Shown here: positions 597 through 1,333 of the stretch, piece by piece
How the letters are laid out: every line of letters begins with the position of its first letter
Position numbering within the stretch: the stretch's first letter is position 1
IMG/VR virus record: IMGVR_UViG_2778261165_000003
Span: 1-4,855 of that record
Strand: one strand, 5' to 3'
DNA: 4,855 bases
From: a virus
Taxonomy: Duplodnaviria > Heunggongvirae > Uroviricota > Caudoviricetes
The notes under the pieces: model-generated
Database searches by the model: none
Told to the model about the DNA's origin: nothing
The model's input: only the letters and a program-made list of their open reading frames with translations
Program-made: the position numbers and the translations under genes

Positions 597-752
597 TTAT
601 AGGCTCCATCCATCCCGTTTTCTCTCACCAAAAATATGCCTGTGCCATTCTTCCCGCTGCCGTCTCCATAGTTCCATCATGTCTGGCTGGTTCTTTTCTC
701 GCATTTTTCGAATCTGCTCAAGGATGAACTCTATTTGCTGCTGATTTGTCAT
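597..752 (-). CDS. Small hypothetical protein (51 aa, basic)
   Basis: Hand-translated ORF below the 60-aa cutoff of the supplied track: MTNQQQIEFILEQIRKMRENKQPDMMELWRRQREEWHRHIFGERKRDGWSL. A strong AAGGAG lies 5 nt upstream of the ATG at 752 and sits immediately after the stop of the 71-aa ORF. Same strand and tight spacing as its neighbours. Product unknown. Confidence 0.4.
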   Translation of the reverse strand: MTNQQQIEFILEQIRKMREKNQPDMMELWRRQREEWHRHIFGERKRDGWSL

Positions 753-762
753 GCTCACTCCT

Positions 763-978
763 TCACTTTAAATTCAGGTTCCGGATAATTCTGTTGCGCT
801 GAAACTCATTGTTGAGTCTGAACAACCGCCGAAGAACACGGTCACGCGGATAGCGTCGTGCGGCAGGTGAATGCTCATACAACTCATCAAGCGGCAAACT
901 TGACGATGAACGATACCGATACCAACGCACCAACTCTTCACGAAAATTAGCCCTGACAAGCTCAGCTATCGTACTCAT
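763..978 (-). CDS. Small arginine-rich hypothetical protein (71 aa)
   Basis: ORF with GGAGG (rc of 988..992) 9 nt upstream of the ATG at 978. Very basic, Arg-rich sequence (RRYPRDRVLRRLFRLNNEFQRNRIIRNL), which suggests nucleic-acid binding. No family recognised. The alternative-frame ORF 774..959 lacks an RBS and is Cys-rich and unprotein-like. Confidence 0.5.
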   Translation of the reverse strand: MSTIAELVRANFREELVRWYRYRSSSSLPLDELYEHSPAARRYPRDRVLRRLFRLNNEFQRNRIIRNLNLK

Positions 979-1006
979 TTCTTAAAGCCTCCAATTCCTC
1001 TCCCCC

Positions 1007-1038
1007 AAATAAAAAGGCCTGCGATTACCAGCAGGCCT
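1007..1038 (-). terminator. Rho-independent terminator (minus-strand sense) between the 89-aa ORF and the 71-aa ORF
   Basis: Perfect 8-bp inverted repeat AGGCCTGC (1015..1022) / GCAGGCCT (1031..1038) with an 8-nt loop. On the minus-strand transcript it is followed directly by UUUUUAUUU (rc of 1007..1015). It lies 25 nt downstream of the 89-aa ORF stop. No comparable T-run follows it on the plus strand. Confidence 0.6.
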
Positions 1039-1063
1039 GTTATTAGCTCAGTGATGTAGATGG

Positions 1064-1333
1064 TCATTGCTTCATCTCCCTTTCCATTTCATCAATGTCA
1101 ACGTCATCAGGAAGATGGGAACAATACGCTGCTATACCATGATGATTTATCTCATACCCTTTGAACGTTACCATCTGGCGCGTAATCTCAACTTCGTTCA
1201 GGAATCCGTCATCGCATAACTGCCTGGCTATTTTCGATTTGGTCTGGATTATTGGTAGTGCCTGTTCTTTCAAAGCGTATGATATTTGTGCATCCCATGC
1301 TTTTTCGAGAATGGCTAATTGTTTTTTATTCAT
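1064..1333 (-). CDS. Hypothetical protein (89 aa), translationally coupled to the primase-helicase
   Basis: Its ATG (1333..1331) abuts the primase-helicase stop codon (1334..1336). GGAG lies 6 nt upstream, inside the 3' end of the helicase gene. Sequence MNKKQLAILEKAWDAQISYALKEQ...VTFKGYEINHHGIAAY with an acidic tail; no family recognised. Confidence 0.6.
   Translation of the reverse strand: MNKKQLAILEKAWDAQISYALKEQALPIIQTKSKIARQLCDDGFLNEVEITRQMVTFKGYEINHHGIAAYCSHLPDDVDIDEMEREMKQ

What the first reader, a model, noticed from the sequence alone, without database searches (positions are those of the whole stretch)
597..1333. Three uncharacterised small genes between the primase-helicase and ninB
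Three small ORFs (89, 71 and 51 aa) each have their own Shine-Dalgarno sequence and sit between the replication genes and ninB, split by an intrinsic terminator. None matches a family I recognise. The 89-aa gene is stop-start coupled to the helicase, suggesting a replication accessory role. The 71-aa protein is extremely Arg-rich and the 51-aa protein is basic, as nucleic-acid-binding proteins often are. In lambdoid phages this position holds variable accessory genes (lambda ren, which counters Rex exclusion, lies here), so these are plausible host-takeover or anti-defence candidates. That functional guess is inference only.
Basis: partly seen in the sequence, partly recalled or inferred. Interest (0 to 1): 0.6.

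Follow-up and report, generated by a model that had tools for sequence, protein, structure and literature searches.

The report
Small accessory genes flanking lambda tR2
The three small genes are real, conserved but uncharacterised accessory genes of E. coli lambda-like prophages, sitting on either side of an exact copy of the well-known lambda tR2 terminator; this is an ordinary, already catalogued part of the phage "nin" region.

Summary
On the minus strand, ORFs of 89 aa (1064-1333), 71 aa (763-978) and 51 aa (597-752) lie between a primase-helicase gene and ninB. Each has a Shine-Dalgarno sequence, and an intrinsic terminator lies between the first two.

The terminator is identical to phage lambda tR2. 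It sits inside a fourth ORF, the 30-aa "ninA" ORF (975-1067), which overlaps both neighbours by ATGA.

All three proteins belong to catalogued families of unknown function: phrog_2239; Pfam DUF7301 / phrog_1785; phrog_18758. Identical proteins occur in many E. coli prophages. Substitution patterns show purifying selection in the annotated frames.

The 89-aa protein models confidently (pLDDT 91) as a winged-helix-like domain. The 71-aa protein is an Arg-rich helical protein with no fold match.

The genes assort independently around the invariant tR2 core. The 89-aa gene follows at least five unrelated replication modules, or Ren, and is usually absent, so a role specific to this helicase is not supported. 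DUF7301-p51-NinB travels as a block.

Most likely these are dispensable accessory genes. The 89-aa gene would be expressed with the replication genes, and the other two only after antitermination at tR2. An anti-defence role remains untested. Interest is low.

The parts
1334..3226 (-). Primase-helicase gene (630 aa), the upstream neighbour. Its TAA stop abuts the ATG of the 89-aa gene.
   Evidence: Pfam Toprim_2, AAA_25 and DnaB_C; phrog_239 at 1.3e-170. Junction read.
1064..1333 (-). 89-aa gene (p89): phrog_2239, winged-helix-like small acidic protein, encoded upstream of tR2.
975..1067 (-). 30-aa hydrophobic 'ninA' ORF. It overlaps the 89-aa stop and the 71-aa start by ATGA and contains tR2.
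   Evidence: phrog_5907 at 1.6e-17. Annotated ninA/NinA in phi24B and PhiR12_1. About 70 nt nearly identical to the lambda ren-ninB interval. The C-terminus varies by frameshift, and the ORF is absent in some loci that keep the hairpin.
1005..1038 (-). Intrinsic terminator identical to lambda tR2: AGGCCTGC-TGGTAATC-GCAGGCCT followed by TTTTTATTTGG.
   Evidence: Terminator scan. Fold of -16.8 kcal/mol. The exact 34-mer occurs in lambda, 933W, BTP1 and 83 of 109 fetched loci. PMC4824070 places lambda tR2 inside the NinA ORF with a maximal efficiency of about 0.9.
763..978 (-). 71-aa gene (p71): Pfam DUF7301 / phrog_1785, Arg-rich helical protein, first gene downstream of tR2.
   Evidence: DUF7301 at 6.7e-26, 90.7 bits against a cut-off of 27. 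182 phage records. dN/dS 0.33 in frame against 0.76 and 3.8 out of frame. AF2 all-helical, pLDDT 67.7. No PDB sequence or fold match.
597..752 (-). 51-aa gene (p51): phrog_18758, the short form of a 51/68-aa family. It ends at a mosaic junction before ninB.
   Evidence: phrog_18758 at 3.8e-31, matching positions 1-51 of 68. Alignment with Bas106 diverges right at the stop codon. The family has both lengths. The exact protein is on 263 contigs. dN/dS 0.12-0.29 in frame, above 1 out of frame against L105 and in all comparisons among the 68-aa forms; frame +2 gave 0.63 against L107/L108 and 0.32 against Bas106.
118..564 (-). ninB (148 aa), the downstream neighbour and end of the constant DUF7301-p51-NinB block.
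   Evidence: Pfam NinB at 1.5e-48. The block is constant in six different prophage contexts.

Best explanation
The segment is the left end of the nin region of a lambdoid E. coli prophage, built around an exact copy of the lambda tR2 terminator. It holds four tightly chained ORFs, not three: p89, ninA (containing tR2), DUF7301 (p71) and p51.

Shown here:
- p89, p71 and p51 are genuine protein-coding genes under purifying selection, and members of catalogued families of unknown function.
- They are optional modules that assort independently around the invariant terminator.
- p89 shares the slot just upstream of tR2 with Ren.
- p71 and p51 share the slot between tR2 and ninB with Lar, a PhiTE_015-family gene, DUF4752 and others.

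Inferred from lambda biology:
- p89 is translated from the same early pR transcript as the replication genes, by re-initiation at the helicase stop codon.
- Polymerases that have not been modified by N mostly stop at tR2.
- p71, p51 and ninB are therefore delayed-early genes, expressed only after antitermination.
- As in lambda, where the whole nin region can be deleted, these genes are most likely dispensable accessory functions and not core replication or regulatory genes.

Most likely biochemical roles (inference): p89 is a small winged-helix-like protein that binds DNA or a partner protein. p71 is an Arg-rich amphipathic helical protein that binds nucleic acid. p51 is a short, mildly basic protein whose structure I could not predict here. 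The ninA ORF is probably a by-product of the terminator, or at most a coupling device, and not a functional peptide.
For: Anatomy: ORFs, SDs and ATGA/TAAATG junctions.

Families: DUF7301 and phrogs 2239, 1785, 18758 and 5907.

Exact proteins occur in many E. coli assemblies. The locus is near-identical to L112 apart from an HNH insertion.

Coding evidence:
- p89: pN 0.27-0.36 with pS 0.78-0.96.
- p71: dN/dS 0.33 in frame against 0.76 and 3.8 out of frame.
- p51: 0.12-0.29 in frame; out of frame mostly above 1, but frame +2 gave 0.63 against L107/L108 and 0.32 against Bas106.

tR2 identity with lambda, and the 34-mer exact in 83 of 109 loci. Literature on tR2 within NinA (PMC4824070), on nin genes being delayed-early, N-dependent and non-essential (PMC10695390), and on ATGA chains being typical of nin regions (PMC8022706).

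Mosaicism:
- In p71-anchored loci, tR2/ninA is almost always upstream, with Lar, p51 or nothing downstream.
- In tR2-anchored loci, the gene upstream is Ren in 44, a helicase in about 55 and p89 in 2. The first gene downstream is NinB in about 63, a 68-aa gene in 27, PhiTE_015 in 15 and p71 in 9.
- In p51-anchored loci, DUF7301-p51-NinB is constant behind five different replication modules.

Against: - No expression, binding or phenotype data exist for any of the three proteins.
- p89 is acidic overall (pI 5.26). The model has only one short helix (34-41) between the first strand and the wing, so it is not a canonical HTH and DNA binding is uncertain.
- The window's p89 subgroup has lost family-conserved R67, C74 and T63.
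- The p71 model is of low confidence (pLDDT 67.7) and has no structural neighbours.
- Timing of expression is extrapolated from lambda. The window contains neither an N gene nor nut sites.
- p51 compared with its nearest relative gives dN/dS of about 1.2, on only about 10 changes.
Confidence: 0.8

Rival explanations
1. Anti-defence or host-takeover genes. One or more of p89, p71 and p51 would neutralise a host or prophage immunity system, as Ren (against Rex exclusion) and Lar (restriction alleviation) do in the same slots. This is compatible with the organisation described above, but it is a more specific claim about function.
For: - p89 occupies the slot that Ren holds in 44 of 120 tR2-anchored contigs.
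- p51 alternates with Lar directly downstream of p71.
- The genes are small, patchily distributed and swapped as cassettes, as counter-defence genes typically are.
- The nin region is dispensable for plaque formation on laboratory hosts (PMC10695390).
Against: - No detectable homology of p89 to Ren (hhalign probability 0.3%).
- No Lar_restr_allev or other Pfam hit for p71 or p51 beyond DUF7301.
- No NCBIfam or PADLOC hit.
- Old 'Lar family' labels on DUF7301 proteins look like annotation carried over from the adjacent or overlapping Lar gene.
- Bas106 carries both Ren and p89, so the two are not simple alternatives.
- No experimental report found.
Confidence: 0.25
2. p89 is a replication accessory factor that works with the helicase or primase encoded just upstream, for example by modulating loading or origin binding through its winged-helix domain.
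For: - p89 starts directly at the helicase stop codon.
- Diverged homologues (about 55% identity) also lie within the first few genes after the replication module.
- Winged-helix domains are common in replication initiators and loaders (general knowledge).
Against: - The upstream partner is a primase-helicase, a DnaB-type helicase, lambda P, a DnaC/IstB-like loader or Ren in different phages.
- Near-identical primase-helicase genes are followed by an HNH-AP2 gene, or by tR2 directly, without p89.
- Only 2 of 120 tR2-anchored contigs have p89 upstream.
- Stop-start coupling is generic in nin regions.
Confidence: 0.12
3. Some or all of the ORFs are not functional genes, only open frames kept by chance or by constraints on the DNA or RNA.
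For: - The window has 53 ORFs of at least 30 aa.
- For ninA specifically, the C-terminus changes by frameshift (25-30 aa), and about 10 loci keep the hairpin without the ORF. All variants seen change the peptide.
- In a reporter, its translation changes tR2 efficiency by only about 10%.
Against: For p89, p71 and p51 the annotated frame shows far fewer non-synonymous than synonymous changes, whereas the other frames mostly do not. The frames stay open at 55-75% protein identity. Each has a strong SD.
Confidence: 0.04

Closest known systems
Phage lambda ren-tR2(ninA)-ninB junction
   Same: About 70 nt from the ninA ATG through the tR2 hairpin and T-tract are essentially identical. The stop of the upstream gene overlaps the ninA ATG by ATGA in the same way. 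The element holds the same position between the replication genes and ninB.
   Different: In lambda, ninA (26 aa by my read) runs straight into ninB, and the upstream gene is ren. Here the upstream gene is p89, and two extra genes (DUF7301 and p51) are inserted between tR2 and ninB.
Stx-converting phages (phi24B, 933W, VT2-Sakai, Stx2a_F451) and BASEL phage Bas106
   Same: The same p89, ninA/tR2 and DUF7301 genes at 93-99% identity, annotated as hypothetical proteins. Bas106 is the only sequenced phage in the collection that also has the p51-family gene.
   Different: Stx phages carry Lar in place of p51 and often add a PhiTE_015-family gene (orf29). Bas106 has Ren upstream of p89 and the long 68-aa form of p51.
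Winged-helix transcription regulators (MarR / PadR type)
   Different: No sequence-level membership. p89 is a single 75-residue domain with no dimerisation helices. Only one short helix precedes the wing. It has an acidic tail and net charge -4. Most family members carry a conserved C-x-x-C after the wing.
Lambda Ren
   Same: A small protein (96 aa against 89 aa) encoded in the same slot immediately upstream of tR2. By eye, its sequence also looks winged-helix-like around 'AKMARAGLLV'. That is my reading of the sequence, not a test.
   Different: No detectable homology (hhalign probability 0.3%). The two co-occur in Bas106.

Membership tests
Pfam DUF7301 (PF23975), for the 71-aa protein | Full-length match to the family HMM above the gathering score | tested here: met
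   90.7 bits against a cut-off of 27, E 6.7e-26, residues 1-64 on profile positions 1-64 of 65. The invariant YPRDRVLRR core is shared with relatives.
PHROG 2239, for the 89-aa protein | Full-length match to the family profile | tested here: met
   E 3.6e-63, residues 1-89 on positions 1-89 of 89. All 80 distant relatives scanned also hit phrog_2239 and no Pfam family.
PHROG 18758, for the 51-aa protein | Full-length match to the family profile (68 positions) | tested here: inconclusive
   E 3.8e-31, but only profile positions 1-51 of 68 are covered. The window protein lacks the C-terminal YGYGTRPNKNGYSLYTY tail. A 51-aa subgroup is common in its own right.
Lambda tR2 intrinsic terminator | Sequence identity with the lambda tR2 hairpin and U-tract, at the ren/ninB-equivalent position | tested here: met
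   The exact 34-mer is shared with NC_001416. It has an 8-bp GC-rich stem, an 8-nt loop and TTTTTATTT.
Lambda tR2 intrinsic terminator | Terminates transcription in vivo and is overridden by N antitermination | not testable with these tools
   Known for the identical lambda sequence (maximal efficiency about 0.9 in PMC4824070; N-dependence in PMC10695390). Not measured for this prophage.
Winged helix-turn-helix DNA-binding domain (MarR/PadR-like), for the 89-aa protein | H1-S1-H2-H3-S2-wing-S3 topology with a recognition helix | tested here: inconclusive
Winged helix-turn-helix DNA-binding domain (MarR/PadR-like), for the 89-aa protein | Sequence membership in a MarR, PadR or other HTH family model | tested here: not met
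   No Pfam or NCBIfam hit. A PDB profile search found nothing at E <= 1. The only single-sequence hit was a weak one to PerR (E 0.031).
Winged helix-turn-helix DNA-binding domain (MarR/PadR-like), for the 89-aa protein | Binds DNA | not testable with these tools
   Needs EMSA or ChIP. The net charge of -4 argues for caution.
Ren exclusion protein, for the 89-aa protein | Homology to lambda Ren | tested here: not met
   hhalign probability 0.3%, E 0.2.
Lar / Ral restriction alleviation, for the 71- and 51-aa proteins | Match to Lar_restr_allev (PF14354 / TIGR03655) | tested here: not met
   No hit in Pfam or NCBIfam. The Lar gene of related phages is a separate ORF next to DUF7301.

The most novel reading that the evidence does not exclude
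At least one of the three proteins is a previously unrecognised counter-defence or host-takeover factor. The best candidates are the winged-helix-like p89, which sits in the Ren slot, and the Arg-rich DUF7301 protein, which is encoded immediately after tR2. The tR2 flanks of lambdoid phages would then be a hotspot for such genes. A weaker variant is that DUF7301 is an Arg-rich RNA-binding protein acting on the phage's own termination or antitermination.
Probability: 0.2. Interest if true: 0.5.

Novelty: already known. Interest (0 to 1): 0.2.

Why it matters
These ORFs are carried by a large share of pathogenic E. coli. Part of the 841-bp query around the finding (window 560-1400) matches 2012 of 5426 complete genomes, including Stx-converting phages, yet none of the three has a known function. 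The useful outcome here is tidy annotation:
- the terminator is lambda tR2;
- the 30-aa ORF is ninA;
- phrog_2239 has a winged-helix-like fold;
- DUF7301 and the 51/68-aa family are true genes.

The two sides of tR2 are interchangeable accessory slots shared with Ren and Lar. That makes these genes reasonable, but not outstanding, candidates for counter-defence screens. Nothing here challenges current understanding of lambdoid phages.

Tried and rejected
- Rfam scan of the window: only a sub-threshold Trp-leader hit (21.5 bits against 41) over the terminator, which is the generic hairpin signal.
- A PDB profile search with the DUF7301 alignment returned P22 Cro (1rzs, E 1e-7). This is an artefact. 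One row of my alignment (P0108, a single 3.2-kb Logan contig) is a Cro N-terminus fused to the DUF7301 C-half. The window protein alone has no PDB hit.
- Foldseek of the low-confidence p71 model against the PDB: no match at all.
- Foldseek of the p89 model against viral structures: only weak matches to winged-helix-like proteins, none with a named function.
- The weak Pfam hits (zf-CCCH_6 and PSMD12-CSN4_N) and the PADLOC hit (PDC-M53A) are far below their cut-offs and were ignored.
- Literature searches for DUF7301, the phi24B, 933W and BTP1 locus tags and the phrog numbers found nothing relevant. A 2025 accessory-gene screen does not cover this region.
- Contexts of very distant p89 relatives sat on contigs too short to be informative.
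- I considered ribosome-controlled attenuation at tR2 through ninA translation. It is rejected as a major mechanism, because silencing the NinA start changed the efficiency of the identical terminator by only about 10%, and some loci keep tR2 without the ORF.

Full report
**Observation.** All genes in the window read on the minus strand, so the window is a stretch of a rightward (pR-type) early operon. In order of transcription it contains:
- a 47-aa ORF;
- an O-like initiator (3813-4544);
- a 35-aa ORF;
- an HNH/NUMOD4 endonuclease (3211-3705);
- a 630-aa primase-helicase (1334-3226);
- the region of the finding;
- ninB (118-564; Pfam NinB 1.5e-48).

The 89-aa ORF is at 1064-1333, the 71-aa ORF at 763-978 and the 51-aa ORF at 597-752. 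Reading the minus strand confirms a Shine-Dalgarno sequence before each: GGAG at 6 nt, GGAGG at 9 nt and AAGGAG at 5 nt. It also confirms the TAAATG junction with the helicase gene and an intrinsic terminator (stem 1038-1015, T-run to 1005).

The composition claims are right for the 71-aa protein (15 Arg, pI 11.25). They are overstated for the 51-aa protein (net +2). The 89-aa protein is acidic.

It overlaps the stop of the 89-aa gene and the start of the 71-aa gene by ATGA, and it contains the terminator.

**What the terminator is.** About 70 nt, from the ATG of the 30-aa ORF through the hairpin and T-tract, are essentially identical to the interval between ren and ninB of phage lambda. The 34-mer AGGCCTGCTGGTAATCGCAGGCCTTTTTATTTGG is exact in lambda, 933W, BTP1 and 83 of the first 109 loci I fetched. 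This is lambda tR2, and the 30-aa ORF is 'ninA'.

Li et al. (PMC4824070) describe exactly this arrangement: tR2 lies 30 bp after the NinA start codon, with a maximal efficiency of about 0.9. Silencing NinA translation changed that efficiency by only about 10%.

Across loci the ninA C-terminus changes by frameshift (20-30 aa in the loci). About ten loci keep the hairpin behind a different upstream gene with no ninA ORF. Every variant I saw alters the peptide. The conserved object is therefore the terminator, not the peptide.

**Are the three ORFs genes?** ORF length alone means little here, since the window has 53 ORFs of at least 30 aa. All three nevertheless match catalogued families of unknown function:

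| ORF | Family | E-value |
|---|---|---|
| p89 | phrog_2239 | 3.6e-63 |
| p71 | Pfam DUF7301 (90.7 bits against 27) / phrog_1785 | 6.7e-26 |
| p51 | phrog_18758 | 3.8e-31 |

Identical proteins are present in many E. coli assemblies. Homologues occur in 115 (p89), 182 (p71) and 1 (p51) sequenced phage records.

Codon-level comparisons with diverged relatives support coding in the annotated frames:
- p89: pN 0.27-0.36 with synonymous sites saturated.
- p71: dN/dS 0.33 in frame, against 0.76 and 3.8 in the other two frames.
- p51: dN/dS 0.12-0.29 in frame. Out-of-frame values exceed 1 against L105 and among the 68-aa forms, but frame +2 gave 0.63 against L107/L108 and 0.32 against Bas106. Against its closest relative the in-frame ratio is about 1.2, on only about 10 changes.

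The 51-aa protein is the short form of a family that also has a 68-aa form. The window sequence departs from the long form exactly at its stop codon, at a mosaic joint in front of ninB.

**Structure.** With a 15-sequence alignment, p89 models confidently (pLDDT 91.4, pTM 0.76). The elements are helix 3-20, a short strand, helix 34-41, a beta-hairpin at 45-62 and helix 64-72, followed by an acidic tail.

A profile search finds 243 clusters (at 50% identity) of similar 75-90-aa proteins. All 80 relatives that I scanned hit phrog_2239 and no Pfam family. They share:
- a Q-T-K-S-K motif before the short helix;
- G-Y-x-L-T-x-x-G-R after the wing;
- an invariant Cys71, usually within C-x-x-C.

The window's subgroup has lost R67, T63 and the second Cys.

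The p71 model is all-helical, with three main helices (4-25, 30-41 and 44-68). Confidence is low (pLDDT 67.7). It has no PDB neighbour by sequence or fold.

**Cassette behaviour.** I looked at three differently anchored samples.

1. *80 viral contigs selected by p71.* tR2/ninA is almost always just upstream, sometimes with a PhiTE_015-family gene in between. Upstream of tR2 lies Ren, p89 or a helicase gene directly. Downstream of p71 lies Lar, p51 or ninB.
2. *120 viral contigs selected only by the tR2 34-mer.* The gene upstream is Ren in 44, a helicase in about 55 and p89 in only 2. The first gene downstream is NinB in about 63 (the lambda arrangement), a 68-aa gene in 27, the PhiTE_015 family in 15 and p71 in 9.
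3. *Six genomes selected by the exact p51 protein.* The DUF7301-p51-NinB block is constant. It sits behind five different replication modules: IstB-like loader plus Ren, primase-helicase plus HNH-AP2, primase-helicase plus p89, DnaB, and lambda P plus Ren.

One of these genomes (L112, GCA_003009255.1) is collinear with the window at 95-98% identity apart from a 499-bp insertion.

Diverged p89 homologues (about 55% identity) also lie just after the replication genes, again behind different helicase or loader types. Bas106 has Ren and p89 together.

**Interpretation.** The region is the left end of a lambdoid nin region in which tR2 is a fixed landmark with an interchangeable accessory slot on each side. 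From lambda biology, the nin genes are delayed-early, depend on N antitermination and are dispensable (PMC10695390). ATGA chaining is typical of nin regions (PMC8022706).

I infer the following:
- p89 is made from the same early transcript as the replication genes.
- p71, p51 and ninB require read-through of tR2.
- All three are non-essential accessory genes.

The anti-defence idea is neither supported nor excluded. The slots are shared with Ren and Lar, but there is no homology to them or to anything in NCBIfam or PADLOC, and I found no experimental literature. Older 'Lar family' labels on DUF7301 proteins appear to be carry-over from the neighbouring Lar gene.

**Verdict.** The added value is in the corrections (the fourth ORF and the identity of the terminator), a fold assignment for phrog_2239, coding evidence for all three genes and a clear picture of modular exchange. 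Interest is 0.2. The most novel reading still open, a new counter-defence function, has a probability of about 0.2.

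Noticed in passing
window 3203-3701 (HNH gene 3211-3705, minus strand): A free-standing HNH/NUMOD4 endonuclease gene (164 aa) is a discrete 499-bp insertion relative to the otherwise collinear prophages L112 and L111. It sits exactly at the 5' end of the primase-helicase gene and overlaps its start, which gives a 630-aa product where the relatives have 626 aa. It looks like a homing-endonuclease insertion. Other HNH-AP2 genes occupy nearby slots in related prophages.
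   Followed up: partly
window 4700-4770 (hairpin 4731-4761 on the + strand, then ATTTTTTTAT): A terminator-like hairpin antisense to the early operon. The segment aligns with the 3' end of lambda cII and the cII-O intergenic region, which is where the lambda oop antisense RNA terminates (the location of oop is from my own knowledge). The ORF that runs off the right end of the window ends in a cII-like '...ERSDQIQMEF' tail, although in the relative L112 that gene is called as an HNH_3-containing ORF. This suggests an oop-like element retained next to an inserted gene.
   Followed up: partly
window 4541-4684 (minus strand): The 47-aa ORF between the cII/oop region and the O-like gene matches phrog_1913, which is labelled 'tail protein' (4.7e-22). 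That label is implausible for a gene at this early-operon position. Related prophages have a 47-53-aa ORF here, in some cases Pfam DUF2740.
   Followed up: no
window 763-978 and related proteins (alignment A3): DUF7301 is itself a mosaic. There are two N-terminal types and two C-terminal types, 55-60% identical to each other, joined in all four combinations around an invariant YPRDRVLRR core. The core has a few synonymous changes, so recombination seems to occur inside this 71-aa gene.
   Followed up: partly
p89 family (alignment A6); window residues C71 and L74: Cys71 is invariant in 80 of 80 relatives, and 61 of 80 have a second Cys three residues later (Y-C-x-S-C). The window's subgroup has Leu at that position and has also replaced the conserved Arg67 and Thr63. 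This may indicate a metal or redox site that this subgroup has lost.
   Followed up: no
L007 (lambda) 781-1071 compared with window 1064-1333: By eye, lambda Ren also has a winged-helix-like signature (…AKMARAGLLVIEGKVWRTVYYRF…) at the same relative position as in p89, although hhalign finds no homology. The two unrelated occupants of the slot upstream of tR2 may share a fold.
   Followed up: no
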